64,000 nucleotides of DNA from the NCBI GenBank assembly GCA_965262745.1, contig OZ253558.1, forward strand, positions 1,623,735 to 1,687,734, written 5' to 3'. The DNA comes from Chloroflexota bacterium. Lineage in GTDB: Bacteria > Chloroflexota > UBA11872. Each line of letters begins with the position of its first letter. Position 1 is the first letter of the stretch. Both the position numbers and the translations under genes were made by a program. Below are positions 9,182 through 54,389 of this stretch, piece by piece. The notes under the pieces were generated by a model, which was not told where the DNA came from, searched no databases, and was given only the letters and a program-made list of their open reading frames with translations.

Positions 9182-9951
9182 ATATTCGAGCGGGACTGCC
9201 CGCCGTCCACGTTGATGCAGGCGCCGGTGACGAGGCTGGCCTGTTCCGAGGCCAGGAATGTCGCCACGGCGGCCACCTCCTCGGGACGGCCAAACCGGCC
9301 CATGGGCATATCGCGCTCGACGAACGCCGCGATGCCCTGGGGATCGCGGCGCTGTCGCCGCTCCCAGCCGCCGCCGGGAAACAGAATCGAGCCCGGCGCC
9401 ACGGCGTTGACCGTGATGCCAAAGGGCGCCAGCTCGTGCGCCATCGACGTTGCCAGACTATTCATCGCCGACTTGGCGGCGTTGTAGGCCGGTGGGCCGC
9501 CGCCCTCGCGGCCGTAGATGGACGTGATATGCACGATGCGGCCCCAGCCGCCGGCTTTCATGAGCGGCACCGCCGCACGGCTGGCCCGCACGGCCGCCCA
9601 TAGATTCAGGTCGAGCGTTGTGGACCAATGCTCGTCGGTGCCCGTCATGAAGCCGGTGTCGCCAGCCGAGCCGCCGACGTTGTTCACCAGCACGTGAATG
9701 CCCCCGAGCTCGGCCACCGTGCGCGCGACCGCCTGTGCCGGCGCGGCGACGTCGCGAATGTCGAGCTGGAGCGAGAACGCGCGAACACCGAGCGCCGAAA
9801 TCTCGTCGGCGGTGCGTTGCAGGTCCTCCACGCCTCGAGCCACAATCGCCACGTCACAACCCTCGGCAGCAAGCCCGAGGGCAATCGCCCGGCCGATACC
9901 ACGGCTCCCACCGGTCACGAGCGCGATTCGATCACGCAGGCCAACGTCCAT
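9178..9951 (-). CDS. SDR-family oxidoreductase (FabG-like)
   Basis: TGGSRGIGRAIA Rossmann motif, NNVG and the YxxxK catalytic pattern. Confidence 0.85.
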   Translation of the reverse strand: MDVGLRDRIALVTGGSRGIGRAIALGLAAEGCDVAIVARGVEDLQRTADEISALGVRAFSLQLDIRDVAAPAQAVARTVAELGGIHVLVNNVGGSAGDTGFMTGTDEHWSTTLDLNLWAAVRASRAAVPLMKAGGWGRIVHITSIYGREGGGPPAYNAAKSAMNSLATSMAHELAPFGITVNAVAPGSILFPGGGWERRQRRDPQGIAAFVERDMPMGRFGRPEEVAAVATFLASEQASLVTGACINVDGGQSRSNI

Positions 9952-10005
9952 CGGTGCACCCTGTTTCTACGCGGCGTTCGGCAACCCAAGCCCCCCACGT
10001 CCAGC

Positions 10006-34837: not shown

Positions 34838-35407
34838 ATGCACGTCACCGGGTCCAGCCGAACCGCGCGCCTCGGGCGCGTCATCTGCGCGTTTCTGAGC
34901 GGTGTTTTCCTCGCCGGCGCCGTCGCGGCTTGCGGCGAATCCAGCCGCTTCAGCCACATCGCGCCAACCCCCGAACCCACCCCGGTCGTCGTCCAGCTGC
35001 TCGCCATGGTCCCCTCTGGACGCACGATGCCTCCGGTGGCGCCGTCACCGCCCGCCCGCACGCCGGAGACGGTAACCACCATGGCGGCGCCAACGCCCAT
35101 CGTCATCGAGACGCCGACCGAAGTCGTGGACGAGACGCCGAGCCCGACGCCGACCGAGCCGCCCACAGGCCCGTTCACACCCGAAGAAATCGGTAGCCAA
35201 CTCTTTGTCGACAACGGCTGCTTCGTCTGCCACGCCGAAGACCTCAGCGGCGGCATCGGCCCGGCCCTTGCGGGGCGCACACCGGAGGACCTGACGGATG
35301 ACCGCATTCGATCGCAGATCGGCACCGGTGGAAACGGGATGCCGTTCTTTGAAAACCTCACGGCGGAGCAAATCGAACAGCTCATGGCGTTCATTCGCAG
35401 TTCCTAG
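34838..35407 (+). CDS. Lipoprotein c-type cytochrome (class I) with Pro/Thr-rich linker
   Basis: Lipobox LAGAVAACGE, PT-rich spacer, single CFVCH haem-binding motif, then GGNGMP. Confidence 0.7.
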   Translation: MHVTGSSRTARLGRVICAFLSGVFLAGAVAACGESSRFSHIAPTPEPTPVVVQLLAMVPSGRTMPPVAPSPPARTPETVTTMAAPTPIVIETPTEVVDETPSPTPTEPPTGPFTPEEIGSQLFVDNGCFVCHAEDLSGGIGPALAGRTPEDLTDDRIRSQIGTGGNGMPFFENLTAEQIEQLMAFIRSS

Positions 35408-35476: not shown

Positions 35477-36139
35477 ATGCGGAGGATGATCGCTGCGTGC
35501 ATCGCCGTCGCCGCGGCTGCGGTCGTCCTGACCGCGTGCGGCGAAGCCGCCGAGCCCGCAGCACCCGCCGCCGAGGTGAAATACGCGGCAATCGAAGCGC
35601 CCGCGCCGCCCACGGCAACGGATACCCCCGCCCCTCCGCCCGCGCCAACGCCGCAACTGACTCCTACGCCGGTTCCACAGCCGGCTGCCCCGGCAAGGGC
35701 GGCCGCCGTCGACTTCTCGCTCCCGAGCGCCCAGGGCCCGCAATACACCCTGAGCTCCTTCGCGGGACAGCGGCCGGTGGTCGTCGTCTTCTACCGCGCC
35801 TTCTGGTGAGGGACCTGCCGTACCCAGCTCGTGGAGCTGCAAAACGACTACCAGGACTTCCAATCGCGCGGCGTCGAAATCCTCGCCATCAGCACTGACA
35901 CGCTCAATGACACCGCCGGCATTGTTGAGCGGATCGGCCTGCAATTCCCGGTGCTCTACAACTCCGAGGGCGATGTCCCGCGCGCGTACGGCATCTTCGA
36001 TCTCTACGGCGACGGTCTCGCCACGGGGTCGGCGTTCCTGGTCGATCTTGATGGAAACCTGGCCTGGAGTTCGATCTACAGCGGCATTCACGACCTCATC
36101 AAGTCAGACGACATCCTGGCGGCCATCGACGCGCTGTAG
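35477..36139 (+). CDS. Candidate selenoprotein: lipoprotein thioredoxin-fold (TlpA/ResA-like) thiol-disulfide oxidoreductase with an in-frame TGA at 35807-35809
   Basis: Two track ORFs (35414-35809 and 35831-36139) share one frame and are separated only by a TGA that sits at the first-Cys position of the redox motif (FYRAFW-U-GTC); SD AAGGAG precedes the ATG at 35477. Confidence 0.5.
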
Positions 36140-36141
36140 AG

Positions 36142-36495
36142 CAACGGCGCCGCACGCACCCCGGAGAGCGTGACCACCATGGCGCCGCCGCCACGGTTGG
36201 GGCGGCGGCAACCCCGACCCCGAATGGCACGCCGCCCCCCACTCCAACGCCGAAGGTCCAGACCGACGAAGAGCCGCCCTGCCGGCAACTCTTCGTCGAC
36301 AACGGCTGCACGGTCTGCCACGGTGAAGACCTGAGCGGCGGAATCGGATCACCGCTTGCCGGCCGAGCCCCGGACGATCTCACGGAGGAGCGCATCCGCT
36401 CCCAACTCGCCGAGGGTGGAAACGGGATGCCGCCGTTTCCCGATCTGACGGAGGTTCAGATCGGTGAACTGATCGCGTGCATTCGCAGTTCGTAG
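36142..36495 (+). pseudogene. Degenerate duplicate of the cytochrome c gene 3' portion (CTVCH retained, no start)
   Basis: Frame-1 translation ..QLFVDNGCTVCHGEDLSGG..GGNGMPPFPDL..IACIRSS* parallels the end of the gene at 34838-35407; an indel breaks the upstream frame and there is no initiation codon. Confidence 0.4.
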
Positions 36496-36564: not shown

Positions 36565-37635
36565 ATGCGGAGGATGATCGCCGCGTTAATCGCCATCGCC
36601 GCGGCTTCTGTAGTCATTGCGGCGTGCGGCGAATCCGCCGAGCCCGCGGAATCCGCCGCTGGAGCTGCCGTCGCCAGCGAGGCAACCGCGGCCCCCGCGC
36701 CGCCGACGGCAACGGTCACGCCCGCCCCTCCGCCCGCACCGGTGCCGACAGCCACCAGCCCACCGACGCCAGCCGCAACCCCGCCGCCGACCGCCACGGC
36801 GGTCGCGGGAGCGGCCCTGGCGGCCACTTCCGCACCGACTGCGGTAGTCGTCGCCGCGGCGCCGACGCCCACAGCCGCTCCCGCGCCGACCTCAACGCCG
36901 GCGCCCGCAGTAACGCCCACGCCGGCGCCCCTCCCGACCTCAACGCCGCAGCCCACGCCGACGACGGCCGCTGTGCCAACTCCAACTCCCGCACCAACGC
37001 CCGCACCGGCGCCCACGCCAACACCGCAGCCCACACCCGCGCCCACGGCAGCGCCGACGCCGACCCCCGCACCCCAGCCAACGCCGCAGCCGACACCCAC
37101 GCCCGCGCCAGAGCCCACGCCAACGCCGCAACCGACGCCGACGCCCGCGCCACAACCGACCCCAACGCCAACACCGCCACCCGCGCCAGCCAGGGCGGCC
37201 GCCGTCGACTTCTCGTTACCGAGTGCCCAAGGCCCGCAATACACCCTGAGTTCGTTTGCGGGACAGCAGCCGGTGGTGGTGGTCTTCTACCGGGCCTTCT
37301 GGTGAACGACCTGTCGCACGCAGCTCGTGGAGCTGCAGAACAACTACCAGGAGTTCGAATCGCGCGGCGTGGAAATCCTCGCCATAAGCACTGACACGCT
37401 CAATGACACCGCCGGCATTGTTGAGCGGATCGGCCTCCAATTCCCGGTGCTCTACAACACCGAGGGCGATGTTCCCCGGGCGTACGGCATCTTCAACCTC
37501 TACGGCGACGGTCTCGCCACAGGGTCAGCGTTCTTGGTCGATCGTGACGGGGGCCTGGCCTGGAGTTCTGTCTACAGCGGCATTCATGACCTGATCCCCT
37601 CAGCCGACATCCTGGCAGCCATCGACGCCCTCTAG
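36565..37635 (+). CDS. Candidate selenoprotein paralog: lipoprotein thiol-disulfide oxidoreductase with an expanded PT-rich linker and an in-frame TGA at 37303-37305
   Basis: Track ORFs 36502-37305 and 37327-37635 are in frame across the TGA (FYRAFW-U-TTC); SD GAGGAG precedes the ATG at 36565. Confidence 0.5.
36700..37190 (+). repeat. Coding low-complexity Pro/Thr/Ala-rich repeat region (linker)
   Basis: Reiterated [15 protein letters not shown] codon repeats inside the gene at 36565-37635. Confidence 0.7.
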
Positions 37636-50593: not shown

Positions 50594-50629
50594 CTAAACC
50601 ATTCGGTAGTGGGTCACTTTGGCTTCGTC

Positions 50630-50723
50630 ATTCCCGCGAAGCATGTCCCCGAGAAGGCGGGGAGCGGGAATCCAGCCCCGCGCCCGGAAACGACCGGTGT
50701 AGGGGCAACCCTCGTGGTTGCCC
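50630..50723. terminator. Two GC-rich hairpins between convergent genes
   Basis: ATTCCCGC..(TCCCCG/CGGGGA)..GCGGGAAT at 50630-50671 and GGGCAACC-ctcgt-GGTTGCCC at 50703-50723. Confidence 0.25.
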
Positions 50724-50808: not shown

Positions 50809-51453
50809 TTAGCCCGGGTCCACGCGCGCCGCCAACTCGTTCCAGGCGGCCTCGACCCGCGCCACGGCGCTGAGCGTGGCATAGGTGTCGGGCCACATCG
50901 AGTCCACGATTGCCTTCGCGCCGGCATCGTCCCCCGCCGCCGCCAACTCCTCGATCTCGACGGTGCGCGCGGCGTGCCGCGCGGCGCTTTCGCTCGCCAG
51001 CCGGGCCAGCTCCCGCGACGCCCGGAAATGCACGCGGGCAAGGTCCGCGGTGGATATCCCGGCGGACGGATCGTGCTCGGCGCGCTCCTCACTCGTGGCA
51101 TGCCCGTACTTGGGCGGCAGGCGGGACCCGTCCGGCGCGTACATCGTGTGCGTCGGCTCGACGTGCGGCGTCACCGAGAGATACATGATGACCGGCTCGT
51201 CGCCCACGACCCGCACCTGGTGCAACTGGTCCCGATCAGCGAAGCACAGCTCACCCGGCCCCAGCACCGCGGTTTCGCCGTCGATCTCGAACTCGGCGCG
51301 GCCCTGCAGGATCAGGAAAACCTCCCCGCCAAGGTCGTGGCTATGGCGCGTGGCCACGGCGCCCACCTCGAACCGCAGGAAGCGCGCCCGGATCTCGGGC
51401 GTAATGACGACGTTCTTGATATCGCGGCGATAGTCGAAGACCTGCAGCGGCAT
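50809..51453 (-). CDS. Cupin-domain protein
   Basis: RmlC-like cupin motif G(E)VFLILQGRAEFEIDGE.. and a second cupin-like half. Confidence 0.65.
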   Translation of the reverse strand: MPLQVFDYRRDIKNVVITPEIRARFLRFEVGAVATRHSHDLGGEVFLILQGRAEFEIDGETAVLGPGELCFADRDQLHQVRVVGDEPVIMYLSVTPHVEPTHTMYAPDGSRLPPKYGHATSEERAEHDPSAGISTADLARVHFRASRELARLASESAARHAARTVEIEELAAAGDDAGAKAIVDSMWPDTYATLSAVARVEAAWNELAARVDPG

Positions 51454-51455
51454 GT

Positions 51456-51487
51456 CTAAGCGGCTCCTTCCAGGTGTGCGAGCACGA
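51456..51487. repeat. Direct repeat copy A (duplicated 3' end of the MocA-type gene), islet boundary
   Basis: CTAAGCGGCTCCTTCCAGGTGTGCGAGCACGA matches 53295-53326 at 29 of 32 positions; the reverse strand still encodes VLAHLEGAA*. Confidence 0.7.
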
Positions 51488-51490
51488 CTG

Positions 51491-52432
51491 TCAGATAGCC
51501 GGACTTGAGCAGAGCAGCGTGGCGGACTCTCCCGTGTGGCCTATGCAAGTACCTTCCAATGGACGGCCGCTCGGCAGAGTGCCGCCAATACTTAGGCCAA
51601 GCAGGGACTTGGCAGTGTCAGCTCCAGCTAGATGAACGGGAACGGTGCAAAACGCCCCGAAATTCGAATAGTTCCATGACGCGTTACCCACGATCGTTAA
51701 GGGATTCCCTTCGCCCAACTTCCCCAGTTCCTGTAGGGGTTGGCTGATTCGGCTGTCGCCGTTAAGTGGGAGAACCACAAGGTGGTCGGCGATCTTCAGC
51801 ATCCAGCACGGCAGGGGGTCACTCACCAGCATGATGTCATTGAGGGGCACCTCTTCCGGGTCATTGATGACGTACTCGCTGAGAGTGGTGAACTTGAGTG
51901 GATCCAGGATTCGTTGTCGGATCGGCGATAGGGCACCGCCGTGGACGTATGAGTATCCGCCGCGCTGGCCCAGCAGGGAGAACATGGCGAGGTACGCCGA
52001 CTTCAGCGATGACGCGGCAACAGCTTTGGCGTCCGGGATCCTAATCGACATCGTAAACGTCCGCGATCCGGAGTTCTCCAAGGCTCGCCAGTCCTGCCTC
52101 GTGTATCCCGCGAAGGGTGGAGTAAGGGCCTTGCCATCGCGGGACAGCATGAATGTGTCGCGTTTCCCGAGGATGTCGACTGTGACGCCAAACCGGTCCT
52201 TTGCACGGCTTGCGGCCGCCTGATCGATGCCGCGCCCGGCCTCTGAGTTGCAGTTCTTGCAGGTGAGACAGCGAGCCTTGCCGCCAAGCGCTTTAGTGGG
52301 AACGTGCTCCAGCGTGACCGTCCTGCCGGAGGACGCCTGGTGCCGGGTGAAATCGGTCAGGCAGATCGGACAGGCGGTGTTTCCACGGTCATACAGGCGG
52401 AGCCGCTGGCTTCTGCCGGCTTTTCGAGACAT
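51491..52432 (-). CDS. HNH-endonuclease-domain protein with a roughly 250-aa uncharacterised C-terminal domain (islet gene 2)
   Basis: N-terminal CPIC..EHVP..GG..CLTCKNCN HNH zinc-finger motif; low-GC sequence; start taken at MSRKAG (track ORF extends to 52594). Confidence 0.5.
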   Translation of the reverse strand: MSRKAGRSQRLRLYDRGNTACPICLTDFTRHQASSGRTVTLEHVPTKALGGKARCLTCKNCNSEAGRGIDQAAASRAKDRFGVTVDILGKRDTFMLSRDGKALTPPFAGYTRQDWRALENSGSRTFTMSIRIPDAKAVAASSLKSAYLAMFSLLGQRGGYSYVHGGALSPIRQRILDPLKFTTLSEYVINDPEEVPLNDIMLVSDPLPCWMLKIADHLVVLPLNGDSRISQPLQELGKLGEGNPLTIVGNASWNYSNFGAFCTVPVHLAGADTAKSLLGLSIGGTLPSGRPLEGTCIGHTGESATLLCSSPAI

Positions 52433-52577
52433 GCCAGGACGTGCGGGGCTGTCAAGGGGTATTGGAGACCCTAGCAAGAACGTCGCCTCGAAACCCTTGG
52501 TGTGCCAAGTCAGGTCCAGCTCGATCGCGCAGGCGGGCCGCAGTCGTCGGTGGGTGGCCCGGTTGTCCAGAACTCCC

Positions 52578-53288
52578 CTAAGGCAAGTCGGCAAGAAGAC
52601 CTGTTACGTCGCCGCGGAGTTCTGTGAGGCGATCGTGCGATTGCGTCCGAGCGTGCTGCCAAGTTTCGAACGTCTCAAGTGGCGTAGCCAGTCCGTGATC
52701 GGCAACGGCCCTAATGACTTCGCGCATTTGGCGCGCAGTCTCTTCTAATGTCTCGTCAGCGAGTTCGGCTACGACCTGGAATATGGGCATGCAGATCTCG
52801 AGCAGTTGCCGTAGTTGAAGATCGGGGTGCATTTCCGCCAAGAGCTTCCGCCCACCCTCAGCGGTCAATCGACCCTCGGCAATCTCGCGAGACGCACTTC
52901 CTACGGTCGCGATAAAGGCATCCAGCTTGCGCAAGTGCGTGAGGTACGTGTCGATGAGGAGCGCTCGGTGACGAAGTACGTCCCCGATCACTAGACGGTC
53001 GCGCTGAAGTCGACGCTCCTGCTCGTAACGATCCGCGGCAAGAGTTCGCTCGTGATCCATCTGGTCTCGATGCCGTGCGCGCTCATGCTGTAACTGACTT
53101 CGATGGCGAGCTTCATCGCGCCGATGCTGTCGAGCAGCGATGAGTGACTGAATCAGAAATGTCCCGGCAGCTCCGAGTGCGAGCGACAGAAGAATCTTGA
53201 CGAGATCAAACCACATAGCCGGATCACCTGCCTCAATCGCTTTTCTGGCCACACCTGCGACTTCTTGGTCCATGCCGACATCTTTCAT
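52578..53288 (-). CDS. Membrane-anchored, highly charged coiled-coil protein (islet gene 1)
   Basis: One TM helix (LVKILLSLALGAAGTFLIQSLIA) followed by an Arg/Glu/His/Asp-rich helical region; low GC; no known family recognised. Confidence 0.45.
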   Translation of the reverse strand: MKDVGMDQEVAGVARKAIEAGDPAMWFDLVKILLSLALGAAGTFLIQSLIAARQHRRDEARHRSQLQHERARHRDQMDHERTLAADRYEQERRLQRDRLVIGDVLRHRALLIDTYLTHLRKLDAFIATVGSASREIAEGRLTAEGGRKLLAEMHPDLQLRQLLEICMPIFQVVAELADETLEETARQMREVIRAVADHGLATPLETFETWQHARTQSHDRLTELRGDVTGLLADLP

Positions 53289-53294
53289 GCATGG

Positions 53295-53326
53295 CTAGGC
53301 GGCTCCTTCCAGGTGCGCCAGCACGA
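53295..53326. repeat. Direct repeat copy B (native 3' end of the MocA-type gene), islet boundary
   Basis: CTAGGCGGCTCCTTCCAGGTGCGCCAGCACGA; see copy A. Confidence 0.7.
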
Positions 53327-54389
53327 TATCCCGCACCAGCGCCACATGCTCGATGGCCTCACGGCCCGGCGTGAGCGGCTGCTCGCCCCGTGCGATGCAC
53401 GCCGCGAAGTGCTCCAGCTCCAGCTTGAACGGGTTAGCTTGCCATGACCGCGTTGTGCTGGCGGCATGGCCCTCGGCGTCGATCTGCTGCACGGTGACGT
53501 CCGTCGGCAGACCGCGGCTCCACCCGGTCGGGAACGAGGCGATCACGCGATCGCGCGAGCCGTAGACCTCAAGCGTCTCCTCGAAATTCAGCAGCTCCGG
53601 CAGGTCCACCCAGGTGCACACGGCCCGCGCGTCGCCGGCATACTCCAGCACCGTCGTCAGCGCGACGCCGCCGGCCCAGATGTCGGCGCTCACCACCCGA
53701 CGCGGGCTGCCAAACATGCCGTGCAGATTGCCGATGTCGTGAATCATGCTGCCGTTGATGACCTCGAAGGCGCGGCGCGCGTCGGGATCAACCTCGCTGC
53801 GGCCCAGCGCCTCGGCCACGAGCCGGTCCGACTCGGTGCGCCCAGCCTCAATCACCGCGGCCGGCAAGTCTGACGGCACGTAGTAGTCAAATGTCTCCAA
53901 ATGCAGCGCATTGTCGGGATGCAGGTGGTTGACCTGGATCAAGCGCACGTCGTCGATCCGAGCCACCCGCCGCTGCGCGAACTGGTAGGCCGGGTCATGG
54001 CGCTTCATGTAGGCCGCCTGATACACGACCCCGGCACGGTCCGCGGCATCGGCCATCGCCCGCGCCTCGTCGACCGTGTAGCAGACCGGCTTCTCGACCA
54101 GGATGTGCTTGCCGGCCCGGGCGGCCGCGATGGCGGGCGGCGCATGCGTGCCCGAGTTGCAGACGATGACGGCGTCGATATCCGCCCGCTGGACCAGCTC
54201 GTGATAGTCAACGTGCCGCCGCTCCGGCGGGACGCCGTAGGCGGCCCCAACGTGCGCCAGCAACTCGCGCGACAGGTCGCACAGGCCGGCCACCTCAAAG
54301 TCGCTCGACAGCTCGACAAGGTGCGGCAGATGCTGGATTTGAGCGATCCCGCCGCACCCCACGACACCCACCCGCAGCCTGCTCATCAT
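53295..54389 (-). CDS. Gfo/Idh/MocA family oxidoreductase
   Basis: RVGVVGCGGIAQ Rossmann motif, EKP motif; start at MMSRL. Confidence 0.85.
   Translation of the reverse strand: MMSRLRVGVVGCGGIAQIQHLPHLVELSSDFEVAGLCDLSRELLAHVGAAYGVPPERRHVDYHELVQRADIDAVIVCNSGTHAPPAIAAARAGKHILVEKPVCYTVDEARAMADAADRAGVVYQAAYMKRHDPAYQFAQRRVARIDDVRLIQVNHLHPDNALHLETFDYYVPSDLPAAVIEAGRTESDRLVAEALGRSEVDPDARRAFEVINGSMIHDIGNLHGMFGSPRRVVSADIWAGGVALTTVLEYAGDARAVCTWVDLPELLNFEETLEVYGSRDRVIASFPTGWSRGLPTDVTVQQIDAEGHAASTTRSWQANPFKLELEHFAACIARGEQPLTPGREAIEHVALVRDIVLAHLEGAA

What the first reader, a model, noticed from the sequence alone, without database searches (positions are those of the whole stretch)
51456..53326. Low-GC 1.8-kb islet flanked by 32-bp direct repeats: membrane coiled-coil protein plus HNH-nuclease-domain protein
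Shown by the sequence:
- A 32-bp direct repeat at 51456-51487 and 53295-53326 (CTARGCGGCTCCTTCCAGGTGYGCSAGCACGA, 29/32 identical) brackets about 1.8 kb.
- GC drops to roughly 48-58% inside the islet, against about 68% outside.
- Both repeat copies encode VLAHLEGAA-stop on the reverse strand, i.e. the 3' end of the MocA-type oxidoreductase gene. So the insertion went between that gene and a cupin gene that was originally 2 bp downstream, and it rebuilt the gene end.
- It carries two genes and no integrase or transposase. One (52578-53288) has a single TM helix followed by an extremely charged R/E/H/D-rich coiled coil. The other (51491-52432) has an N-terminal HNH zinc-finger nuclease motif (CPIC..EHV..CLTCKNCN) and an unrecognised roughly 250-aa C-terminal domain.

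Inference: a compact horizontally acquired two-gene cassette, either a candidate anti-phage/abortive-infection or toxin-immunity module, or a phage remnant (i-spanin-like protein plus an HNH homing nuclease).
Basis: partly seen in the sequence, partly recalled or inferred. Interest (0 to 1): 0.8.

Follow-up and report, generated by a model that had tools for sequence, protein, structure and literature searches.

The report
Accessory islet with orphan HNH nuclease
A real 1.8-kb strain-variable insertion in a Chloroflexota metabolic operon holds two unrelated genes acquired separately: a lineage-specific membrane protein, and a solitary HNH nuclease from a large uncharacterised family that sits near integrases and defence islands, so it is a modest lead, not a new two-gene system.

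Summary
The repeat is 38 nt (34/38 identical), none is expected by chance, and three related Chloroflexota genomes have a clean empty MocA-stop/CC/ATG-cupin site.

The "two-gene cassette" reading does not hold. A related strain carries gene B alone at this junction. The HNH gene occurs without gene B in 12 other contexts. The HNH coding part also has its own recombination history.

The repeat is the duplicated 3' end of the MocA gene. In sister strains the HNH gene is followed by a remnant of the spacer that elsewhere leads into a P4-type integrase gene. In this window both junctions lie at 9-10-nt microhomologies. I read the islet as a decayed, remodelled integrative insert.

The HNH protein has a good AlphaFold model. 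Only its N-terminal HNH domain matches known structures or families; the 235-aa C-terminal domain matches nothing tested. The family is large (2,246 clusters at 50% identity). Members lie beside Hachiman, a PARIS-like pair, GmrSD, an MmeI-type restriction gene, PADLOC candidate genes, toxin-antitoxin pairs and integrases.

It is most likely a stand-alone mobilome or defence nuclease, which is inferred and untested. No phage link was found. Interest is moderate to low.

The parts
53289..53326 (-). MocA-proximal copy of the 38-nt direct repeat. It is the native 3' end of the MocA-type oxidoreductase gene (VLAHLEGAA-stop), followed by CC and ATGC. GGAAGGAG (53303-53310 on the plus strand) lies 14 nt before the first ATG of gene B.
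   Evidence: identical in layout to the empty sites in L005, L008 and L014
52578..53288 (-). Gene B, 236 aa (231 aa if it starts at the second ATG, 53273). It has an N-terminal single hydrophobic helix, a very charged long helix and a C-terminal helical bundle. It is an orphan: the search found only the window's own sequence plus two clusters, all at this same junction.
   Evidence: dN/dS 0.25-0.30; no Pfam, PHROG, PADLOC, NCBIfam or PDB match
52433..52577 (-). Spacer between gene B and the HNH gene. The HNH-proximal 86 nt (52433-52518) are shared with the unrelated locus L002, so they belong to the HNH module. The gene-B-proximal ~24 nt are shared with L041.
   Evidence: no Rfam match and no unusual folding
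51491..52432 (-). HNH-CTD gene, 313 aa. Residues 1-77 form an N-terminal zinc-finger HNH domain of the Endo VII type (CPIC...TLEHVP...CLTCKNCN). The C-terminal domain of about 235 aa has no detectable relative outside this family.
51481..52518 (-). Extent of the HNH module as defined by nucleotide homology (87.6%) to L002. It overlaps the cupin-proximal repeat copy by 7 nt; the shared string TCGTGCT(G/C)G is a 9-nt microhomology with the MocA sequence.
51450..51487 (-). Cupin-proximal copy of the repeat. It is the displaced MocA 3' end and carries the cupin ribosome-binding site GGAAGGAG and the cupin ATG(C).
53295..54389 (-). MocA-type (GFO_IDH_MocA) oxidoreductase gene, the target gene, intact in this window.
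50809..51453 (-). Cupin_2 gene, originally translationally coupled to the MocA gene.

Best explanation
The 1.84-kb segment is a genuine, strain-variable insertion in the coupled MocA->cupin junction of a Chloroflexota genome. It was assembled in steps from two unrelated single-gene modules.

Step 1 (inferred from the allelic series). Gene B went into the last codons of MocA, and at least 39-100 nt of the MocA 3' end were duplicated. This is the L041 state and is the classical signature of site-specific integration into a gene's 3' end.

Step 2. A solitary HNH-CTD nuclease gene landed just downstream of gene B. It came from a context where it sits tail-to-tail with a P4-type tyrosine integrase. 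Sister locus L040 still keeps 134 nt of that HNH-to-integrase spacer, but the integrase itself is gone.

Step 3 (this window only). Both junctions were remodelled at 9-10-nt microhomologies: TAG(A)CCATGC on the gene B side and TCGTGCTGG on the HNH side. This restored the native MocA end upstream and left a 38-nt copy downstream. Both copies plausibly persist because one finishes MocA and the other carries the cupin ribosome-binding site.

Function. The two genes are not a system. Gene B is a lineage-restricted membrane-anchored helical protein under purifying selection, with an unknown role. The HNH-CTD protein most likely works as a stand-alone metal-dependent DNA endonuclease carried by mobile elements and defence islands. 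Its invariant Endo VII-type HNH centre would do the cutting, and its family-specific C-terminal domain would supply target recognition or control. The nuclease fold, residue conservation, selection and genomic company are shown here. The substrate, the trigger and any defence role are inferred.
For: Empty and filled alleles:
- Clean empty sites occur in L005, L008 and L014. Other small insertions occupy the same spot in L006, L007, L009 and L010.
- Gene B alone is in L041. Gene B plus HNH is in L040, L054 and L055, with different junctions.
- Flank identity shows that filled and empty alleles are interleaved among relatives.

Separate histories of the two modules:
- Module boundaries were mapped by blastn.
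- L040 shares the HNH gene plus 134 nt of downstream spacer with L002 and L003, where that spacer runs into an integrase gene.
- HNH synonymous divergence (dS) is 0.16 between L040 and L002, but 0.33 between the window and L040. A breakpoint lies near the start codon.

Junctions and repeats:
- The microhomologies were read directly.
- Flanking direct repeats are the only or nearly the only such pairs in L040, L002, L053, L054, L041 and L042.
- L042 has a tRNA-Leu triple array around the HNH gene, plus integrase pseudogenes.

The HNH protein:
- HNH_5 scores above its Pfam cut-off.
- C21, C24, E42, H43, C58, C61 are invariant and N62 is at least 90% conserved in 57 sequences.
- The AlphaFold model has pLDDT 85.7 and pTM 0.81.
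- dN/dS is 0.22-0.47.
- The family has 2,246 clusters at 50% identity.

Genomic company of family members:
- A PARIS-like AAA_15 + DUF4276 pair and GmrSD.
- An MmeI-type restriction gene, CBASS and an integrase.
- Hachiman HamA/HamB.
- PADLOC candidates PDC-S26 and PDC-S65.
- RES-Xre and RelE/HigA toxin-antitoxin pairs directly upstream.

Precedents:
- Integrase-less, repeat-flanked tandem islands in Chloroflexota (PMC3146451).
- Integrase-proximal defence hotspots (PMC9122126).
Against: - No integrase, or fragment of one, is in the window. The att-type origin therefore rests on sister loci.
- The order of steps is a parsimony argument from four lineages.
- PADLOC (2023 version) does not recognise the protein.
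- Only 4 of 13 contexts have recognised defence systems nearby. Three contexts (the window, L051, L052) are plain housekeeping neighbourhoods.
- The C-terminal domain is never seen with another effector, so there is no domain-swap signature typical of defence sensors.
- No biochemical evidence exists.
- Three of the four repeat mismatches are synonymous. With only three coding differences this is not significant, and it is equally compatible with import of one copy from another allele.
Confidence: 0.5

Rival explanations
1. The HNH-CTD gene is a selfish, free-standing homing-type endonuclease gene. It would cut HNH-less alleles, or gene 3' ends and tRNA genes, and spread by repair. The islet and its repeats would be by-products of its own activity.
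For: - The gene is solitary. Nucleotide homology between loci is limited almost exactly to the ORF, from about 5 nt before the ATG to CAGTCGYGC at the stop.
- It sits between housekeeping genes in the window, L051 and L052.
- It lies next to tRNA genes in L042 and L052.
- It shows presence/absence polymorphism among close relatives.
- HNH alleles recombine between genomes.
- In two independent loci the 5'-truncated target copy abuts the same position of the HNH tail.
- Endo VII-motif homing enzymes exist (F-CphI, PMC6083498).
Against: - The same kind of repeat flanks inserts that lack the HNH gene: gene B alone in L041, an unrelated ORF between tRNA-Leu copies in L042, and small hairpin elements in L006-L010.
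- Homing gives gene conversion without target duplication.
- Target sequences differ in every locus.
- No phage, intron or intein context was found.
- ORF-only homology is also expected from purifying selection at about 80% identity.
- Integrases or their fragments lie next to the gene in three contexts.
Confidence: 0.2
2. The islet arrived in one step, by illegitimate recombination or replication template switching of a gene B-HNH fragment from a related strain into an empty junction. No integrase was ever involved at this locus. The 38-nt repeat is simply the offset between the two microhomology joints.
For: - Both window junctions sit at 9-10-nt microhomologies between the islet ends (as seen in L040 and L002) and the native junction.
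- The MocA end upstream is fully native.
- There is no recombinase in 64 kb.
- The closest relative in flank identity, L005, is empty.
Against: - This does not explain the older L041 and L040 states, which have a 31-39+ nt duplication and a replaced MocA C-terminus.
- It does not explain the spacer remnant that points to an integrase-adjacent origin.
- It is compatible with step 3 of the best explanation rather than opposed to it.
Confidence: 0.25
3. Gene B and the HNH gene form a cooperating pair: a toxin-immunity, abortive-infection or membrane-sensor plus nuclease-effector defence module.
For: - The genes are adjacent, on the same strand, 145 nt apart, and probably co-transcribed within the operon. 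No terminator-like site was found.
- Both are under purifying selection.
- The pair is kept together in the window and in L040, L054 and L055.
Against: - Gene B occurs without HNH (L041). HNH occurs without gene B in 12 other contexts, with no conserved neighbour.
- Gene B has only two homologous clusters in 5.8 billion sequences, against 333 for HNH.
- The two genes have discordant histories.
- PADLOC gave no hit for either.
Confidence: 0.05
4. The islet is a phage remnant: an i-spanin-like lysis protein plus an HNH homing or packaging nuclease.
For: - Gene B has the gross shape of an i-spanin, with an N-terminal membrane helix and a charged helix.
- The HNH motif gives weak PHROG hits to endonuclease VII (E 0.004-0.06).
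Against: - No relatives of the HNH protein were found in IMG/VR or in 50,697 phage records.
- BFVD fold search gave no hit with E <= 0.001.
- Gene B has no PHROG hit below E 0.1.
- There is no holin, endolysin, o-spanin, terminase or structural gene in the neighbourhood.
Confidence: 0.03

Closest known systems
Integrase-type genomic islands in the 3' ends of tRNA, tmRNA or protein genes, including integrase-less 'cis-mobilizable' derivatives (e.g. Dehalococcoides ssrA islands, PMC3146451)
   Same: - A complete target gene lies on one side, and a displaced, imperfect copy of its 3' end on the other.
- The inserts are low in GC and vary between strains.
- Tandem accretion is seen (L042 tRNA-Leu array).
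- Relatives of the HNH gene sit next to P4-type integrases (L002-L004, L042).
- Many such islands lack their own integration module.
   Different: - No integrase is in the window.
- The insert is only 1.8 kb.
- The window's junctions are at microhomologies rather than at a common crossover core.
- The extent of the repeat differs between sister strains (31-39 nt ending at GCGCAC, against 38 nt ending at CCATGC).
- Excision was not shown.
His-Me finger (HNH) nucleases of the zinc-finger Endo VII / HNH_5 type (PF14279; Jablonska et al. 2017, PMC5714182, lists an uncharacterised PF14279-only group)
   Same: - It has the CxxC...(E)H...CxxC-N motif, with these residues invariant or nearly so.
- The Pfam hit is above the cut-off.
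   Different: - A 235-aa C-terminal domain occurs only with this HNH and has no match in PDB or BFVD.
- The Endonuclease_7 model itself scores below its cut-off (17.7 against 23.6 bits).
Cap5, the HNH-SAVED effector of CBASS
   Different: - That CBASS operon has its own SAVED protein.
- No cyclase is near the window gene.
- There is no evidence for a nucleotide ligand.
Free-standing homing endonuclease genes (T4 mob genes; F-CphI, PMC6083498; PMC2790892)
   Same: It is a solitary nuclease ORF lodged between conserved genes. It is polymorphic among relatives, and alleles recombine.
   Different: - It is chromosomal, on islands or on a plasmid, not in phages.
- Target duplications flank the insert.
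- Inserts without the nuclease show the same repeats.
Defence hotspots next to P4-type integrases (PMC9122126)
   Same: In L002 and L003/L004 the HNH gene is the first cargo gene beside the integrase. It shares the hotspot with a PARIS-like pair, GmrSD, an MmeI-type restriction gene and CBASS.
   Different: These are not E. coli P4 satellites, and no satellite core genes were identified. The window copy has left that context.
Phage i-spanins (Rz type), as a comparison for gene B
   Same: It has an N-terminal membrane anchor followed by a charged helical region.
   Different: - There is no sequence or family match.
- There is no o-spanin, holin or endolysin.
- It is 231-236 aa long and has an extra helical bundle.
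- It is found only at this chromosomal junction.

Membership tests
HNH / His-Me finger nucleases (Pfam HNH_5, PF14279) | Match to the family profile above the curated cut-off | tested here: met
   29.4 bits against a cut-off of 27.5, E 7.4e-7, residues 21-73
HNH / His-Me finger nucleases (Pfam HNH_5, PF14279) | Beta-beta-alpha-metal fold with conserved catalytic His and a Cys4 zinc site | tested here: met
   [not shown]
HNH / His-Me finger nucleases (Pfam HNH_5, PF14279) | Metal-dependent nuclease activity | not testable with these tools
   Needs purified protein.
T4 endonuclease VII family (PF02945) | Match to the family profile above the cut-off | tested here: not met
   17.7 bits against a cut-off of 23.6. 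The profile search of PDB gave 1e7d at E 0.086.
Known anti-phage defence systems (PADLOC-DB 2.0.0) | Match of either protein to any defence-protein model | tested here: not met
   0 families for both proteins. Distant family members give only weak PtuB hits restricted to the HNH motif (E 1e-5 to 6e-3), and no PtuA is nearby.
CBASS Cap5 (HNH-SAVED) | C-terminal SAVED domain and an adjacent CD-NTase | tested here: not met
   [not shown]
Type II toxin-antitoxin or two-gene defence module | The two genes co-occur across genomes | tested here: not met
   Gene B is alone in L041. HNH is without gene B in 12 other contexts.
Free-standing homing endonuclease gene | Presence/absence polymorphism at one site among close relatives | tested here: met
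   Empty sites occur in L005, L008 and L014. Filled sites occur in the window, L040, L054 and L055.
Free-standing homing endonuclease gene | Insertion by gene conversion without target duplication, with the nuclease required for spread | tested here: not met
   Target duplications flank the insert. Inserts without HNH have the same duplications.
Free-standing homing endonuclease gene | Site-specific cleavage of the nuclease-less allele | not testable with these tools
   Needs a cleavage assay on the empty junction.
Integrative element / cis-mobilizable element (att-flanked) | Direct repeats derived from the 3' end of the target gene, with the complete gene on one side | tested here: met
   the same layout is seen at tRNA-Leu in L042
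Integrative element / cis-mobilizable element (att-flanked) | Cognate integrase inside the element or nearby | tested here: not met
   tblastn with the L004 integrase finds nothing in the 64-kb window. Integrases or fragments lie next to the HNH gene in L002, L003/L004 and L042-44.
Integrative element / cis-mobilizable element (att-flanked) | Excision to a circle and a restored empty site | not testable with these tools
   Needs read-level data or PCR.
Insertion sequence / transposon | Transposase, terminal inverted repeats, short target duplication | tested here: not met
   There is no transposase domain. No terminal inverted repeats lie at the islet ends. The duplication is 38 nt.
Phage spanin (i-spanin) for gene B | Family match, and a lysis cassette with o-spanin, holin and endolysin | tested here: not met
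   No PHROG hit below E 0.1. The neighbours are metabolic genes.

The most novel reading that the evidence does not exclude
The HNH-CTD protein could itself be the insertion enzyme of a new kind of minimal mobile element. It would be a one-gene unit that targets the 3' ends of genes and tRNA genes and leaves long (30-190 nt) target duplications, possibly acting in trans on neighbouring cassettes.

This would explain three observations: the recurrent flanking repeats, the ORF-sized unit of homology, and the identical position at which the displaced target copy meets the HNH tail in two independent loci.

A milder version is that it is a new single-protein anti-phage nuclease with a sensor fold not seen before (my estimate about 0.3).
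Probability: 0.05. Interest if true: 0.85.

Novelty: new variant of a known kind. Interest (0 to 1): 0.35.

Why it matters
The islet itself is ordinary genome flux. It is a small accessory insert in a hot spot that has been hit repeatedly, and its allelic series shows how inserts can enter a translationally coupled gene junction while both flanking genes stay intact.

The useful lead is the HNH-CTD family. It is large (over 2,000 clusters at 50% identity). It is found in Actinomycetota, Bacteroidota and contigs of Chloroflexota-type context. It has no name in NCBIfam, no Pfam model for its C-terminal domain and no PADLOC match, and that C-terminal domain has no structural relative in PDB. It repeatedly sits beside integrases, toxin-antitoxin pairs and known defence systems.

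If it is a defence nuclease, it adds a single-gene system with a new control domain. If it is a selfish nuclease, it would be a rare chromosomal example.

Tried and rejected
Searches that found nothing useful:
- A search with the C-terminal domain alone, looking for other effector fusions, recovered only the same HNH family.
- The metagenome scan gave only 2 loci and the viral scan none. The context sample therefore rests on 13 loci.
- Plasmid and phage tblastn gave only two plasmid-collection members and no phage.
- No Rfam family and no unusual RNA structure were found in or around the islet. No promoter-like or terminator-like sites were found.
- Gene B was searched against PDB sequences, Pfam, PHROGs, PADLOC and NCBIfam with no result. 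Its single-sequence AlphaFold model is all helix and not suited to fold search.

Ideas considered and dropped:
- The ~200-aa ORFs called upstream of the HNH gene in L003 and L004 might be gene B analogues. Their translations look like non-coding sequence.
- Short similarities between the HNH upstream region and integrase 3' ends in L002 and L003 (21-35 nt, 77-86%) might be remnants of a target duplication. They are near noise level and are not collinear between the two loci.
- The HNH-less 239-252-aa 'truncated' homologues might be decaying copies. In L051, the one case checked, the full 313-codon frame is open, so there the short form is a start-codon call.
- The repeat flanking HNH in L047 is a multicopy MITE-like element, not a target duplication.
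- The in-frame TGA in gene B of L040 (a 5x contig) is absent in the same lineage in L054 and L055, so gene B is not a pseudogene there.
Full report
**Observation.** The repeat is real and a little longer than reported. It is 38 nt, at 51450-51487 and 53289-53326, with 34/38 positions identical. A search for the 32-nt core with up to 3 mismatches finds exactly these two sites and none in 100 shuffles. In the whole 64-kb window only four direct-repeat pairs of this kind exist (at least 28 nt, at least 84% identity, 0.7-3.6 kb apart), and one brackets the islet.

On the minus strand each copy reads VLAHLEGAA-stop, then two bases, then ATGC. Three mismatches are synonymous third positions and one is in the two-base spacer. 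The GC drop is real but milder than stated: 59.6% against 66.6%. The GC3 contrast is sharper: 71% (HNH) and 57% (gene B) against 88-90% in the flanking genes. The two ORFs, the HNH motif and the membrane plus charged-helix shape of gene B are as described.

**Organism and empty sites.** The MocA protein finds its closest relatives in Chloroflexota metagenome-assembled genomes (94% in OZ244789.1).

The same spot has been hit repeatedly. L006, L007, L009 and L010 carry different 90-250-nt hairpin-rich inserts after CACCTGGAG. In L006 and L007 a displaced CACTTGGAAGGAGCCGCTTAGCC is visibly kept in front of cupin, and L009 and L010 keep matching remnants there. GGAAGGAG is the cupin ribosome-binding site. 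An insert survives here only if MocA still ends properly and cupin keeps that site. This is a sufficient reason for the duplicated segment to persist (inference).

**An allelic series.** The same locus occurs in other assemblies.
- L041 (flanks about 86% identical to the window) has gene B only. MocA is broken after GCGCAC and continues into 55 nt of insert-derived sequence (VLAH-SSGQ-stop). Behind gene B lies about 95 nt that ends in a decayed copy of the MocA 3' end, of which 39 nt are 87% identical.
- L040, L054 and L055 (flanks about 92% identical) have gene B plus the HNH gene. They share the left junction of L041 and have a 29-37-nt repeat. In that lineage MocA is 5'-truncated.
- The window differs at both ends. 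The native MocA end runs right up to the gene B ATG. The displaced copy starts 6 nt after the HNH stop.
- By flank identity the window, L040 (filled) and L005 (empty) are about equidistant (90-92.5%). Filled and empty alleles are therefore interleaved. This means either repeated loss through the repeats or spread between relatives by recombination.

**Two modules, not one cassette.**
- Gene B's search found only the window's own sequence plus two other clusters in 5.8 billion sequences, all at this junction. The HNH gene has 333 homologues.
- blastn shows the HNH module shared with the unrelated locus L002 runs from window 52518 to 51481, at 87.6% identity. In L040 the shared part also includes 134 nt downstream of the stop.
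- In L002 and L003/L004 that downstream spacer leads into the 3' end of a convergent P4-type tyrosine integrase gene.
- The HNH coding region of L040 is closer to L002 (dS 0.16) than to the window (dS 0.33). The 100 nt upstream are closest between the window and L040, so there is a recombination breakpoint near the start codon.
- Both genes are under purifying selection: dN/dS is 0.25-0.30 for gene B and 0.22-0.47 for HNH, against 0.12-0.15 for cupin.

**Junction anatomy.** On the gene B side the window reads ...GCCGCCTAGCCATGC|ATG. L040 reads ...GGCGTAGACCATGC|ATG there, and the native junction is ...GCCGCCTAGCCATGC|CGCT. On the HNH side the window reads ...TGACAGTCGTGCT|CGCACACC. L002 reads ...TGACAGTCGTGCTGGTATCGCC, and MocA reads ...GATATCGTGCTGGCGCAC. 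Both window-specific joints therefore lie in 9-10-nt microhomologies, which points to illegitimate recombination or template switching rather than a recombinase at this last step (inference).

The older L041 and L040 layout is different. It has a complete or replaced gene end on one side and a displaced 3' copy on the other. That is the ordinary signature of integration into a gene's 3' end.

**Flanking repeats are a general feature.** Imperfect direct repeats, with a different sequence each time, bracket the HNH gene in several loci:
- L002: 126 nt, 87% identical, enclosing the HNH gene plus an integrase fragment.
- L053: 74 nt.
- L042-44: copies of tRNA-Leu.

In these loci they are the only, or nearly the only, such pairs.

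L042 has three tRNA-Leu(tag) copies. One complete copy is followed by an unrelated ORF. A second, divergent complete copy is followed by the HNH gene. A third, 5'-truncated copy abuts the HNH tail, and a frameshifted integrase follows.

The same kind of repeat also flanks inserts without the HNH gene: L041, the ORF cassette in L042, and the hairpin inserts. The nuclease is therefore not needed in cis to make them. Chloroflexota precedent exists: Dehalococcoides ssrA islands form tandem, repeat-bounded arrays, and about half of them lack an integration module (PMC3146451).

**The HNH-CTD protein.**
- Residues 21-73 match HNH_5 above the Pfam cut-off. Endonuclease_7 scores below its cut-off.
- C21, C24, E42, H43, C58 and C61 are invariant in 57 sequences, and N62 is at least 90% conserved. 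The LEHVPP...GG...LTC..CN signature extends to members of about 20-30% identity.
- The AlphaFold model is confident (pLDDT 85.7, pTM 0.81).
- A profile search of 1.84 billion representatives finds 2,246 clusters (916 at E <= 1e-10). Those inspected are about 290-350 aa with the same two parts.
- A search with the C-terminal domain alone recovers only this family.
- PADLOC, NCBIfam and PHROGs do not recognise the protein beyond the HNH motif. NCBI calls the Mucilaginibacter plasmid member 'hypothetical protein'.

**Company it keeps (13 independent contexts).**
- Recognised or candidate defence systems nearby in 4:
  - L002: a PARIS-like AAA_15 + DUF4276 pair and GmrSD.
  - L003/L004: an MmeI-type restriction gene adjacent and CBASS 7 kb away.
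  - L056 (Embleya): Hachiman HamA/HamB 1.5 kb upstream, PADLOC E 3e-29 and 4e-102.
  - L049: PDC-S26 directly upstream and PDC-S65 downstream.
- A toxin-antitoxin pair directly upstream in 2: L048 with RES-Xre in an ICE-like region, and L057 with RelE/HigA on a plasmid.
- P4-type integrases or their fragments within about 1.5 kb in 3.
- tRNA genes within 0.5 kb in 2.
- Transposase-rich regions in 3.
- Plain housekeeping surroundings in 3: the window, L051 and L052.
- No conserved partner gene, and no phage record or viral contig.

This is the profile of a mobilome cargo gene of the defence-island type, as at integrase-proximal hotspots (PMC9122126). It is association only, not proof.

**Gene B.** It has one hydrophobic segment (residues 32-50). 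Residues 53-112 are 55% R/K/D/E/H. AlphaFold predicts a 115-residue helix, then a helical bundle. It has no family, structure or defence-model match. It is conserved as a protein, but only at this junction in this lineage. I can say only that it is a membrane-anchored helical protein. The i-spanin idea has no support.

**Verdict.** The islet is a decayed, stepwise-built insert, not a functional two-gene system. The most probable role of its HNH gene is a stand-alone DNA nuclease of mobile elements or defence islands, with a new C-terminal control or recognition domain. I put my confidence in the whole account at 0.5: high for the structural history and about 0.4 for the defence-type function.

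A selfish homing-type nuclease is the main functional rival (0.2). The idea that the nuclease itself drives insertion with long target duplications is not excluded but is unlikely (0.05).

In novelty terms this is a variant of known kinds, namely an integrative islet and an HNH nuclease with an unknown partner domain. Interest is moderate to low (0.35).

Noticed in passing
window 50609-50700 (between cupin and the ADH gene); also L006, L009 and L010 at the MocA/cupin junction: These are hairpin-forming MITE/REP-like elements (CGTCATTCCCGCGAAG...GCGGGAATCC). Short copies recur in several related genomes, including as independent inserts at the very junction that holds the islet.
   Followed up: partly
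window 35687-36139 and 37183-37635; also 35052-35091 and 36150-36189: A 453-nt direct repeat (88.7% identical, 1,496 nt apart) and a 40-nt repeat lie nearby. The long ORFs overlapping the region have no Pfam match. It may be a tandem duplication or another repeat-flanked insert.
   Followed up: partly
L042 8254-11040 (same in L043 and L044): There are three tRNA-Leu(tag) copies in tandem, separated by single-gene cassettes (an unknown ~400-aa ORF, then the HNH gene). The first two copies include the 3' end of an IS1595 transposase gene (190 nt, 92% identical). A frameshifted P4-type integrase follows the third copy.
   Followed up: partly
L002 2411-8858: A small defence island holds GmrSD, a PARIS-like pair (AAA_15/21 ATPase plus DUF4276), the HNH gene and a 168-aa integrase fragment. 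The last two are enclosed by a 126-nt direct repeat.
   Followed up: partly
L040 2364-3257; L054 4406-5104: In the sister lineage the MocA gene is 5'-truncated and preceded by a PIN/DUF7662 pair, so the target gene is already a pseudogene there.
   Followed up: partly
L051 782-1747, and probably the other 239-252-aa HNH homologues (e.g. P0092, P0096, P0101): The HNH-less 'short' form P0092 is a start-codon call. In L051 the full 313-codon frame, including the HNH motif, is open. The other short homologues start at the same internal Met but were not checked.
   Followed up: partly
L056 2971-7385 (Embleya sp. NBC_00896, NZ_CP108777.1): A Hachiman pair lies in a stretch with no gene in the PLSDB gene table, which lists only 7 features for this 3.1-Mb record. 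Its HamB helicase carries a C-terminal HIRAN domain.
   Followed up: no
L042 9966-9995, L051 ~727-760, L052 ~9948-9980: A conserved palindrome, GAGACCGTCTC, lies about 35-45 nt upstream of the HNH start in three loci. It is absent from the window copy and may be an operator.
   Followed up: no
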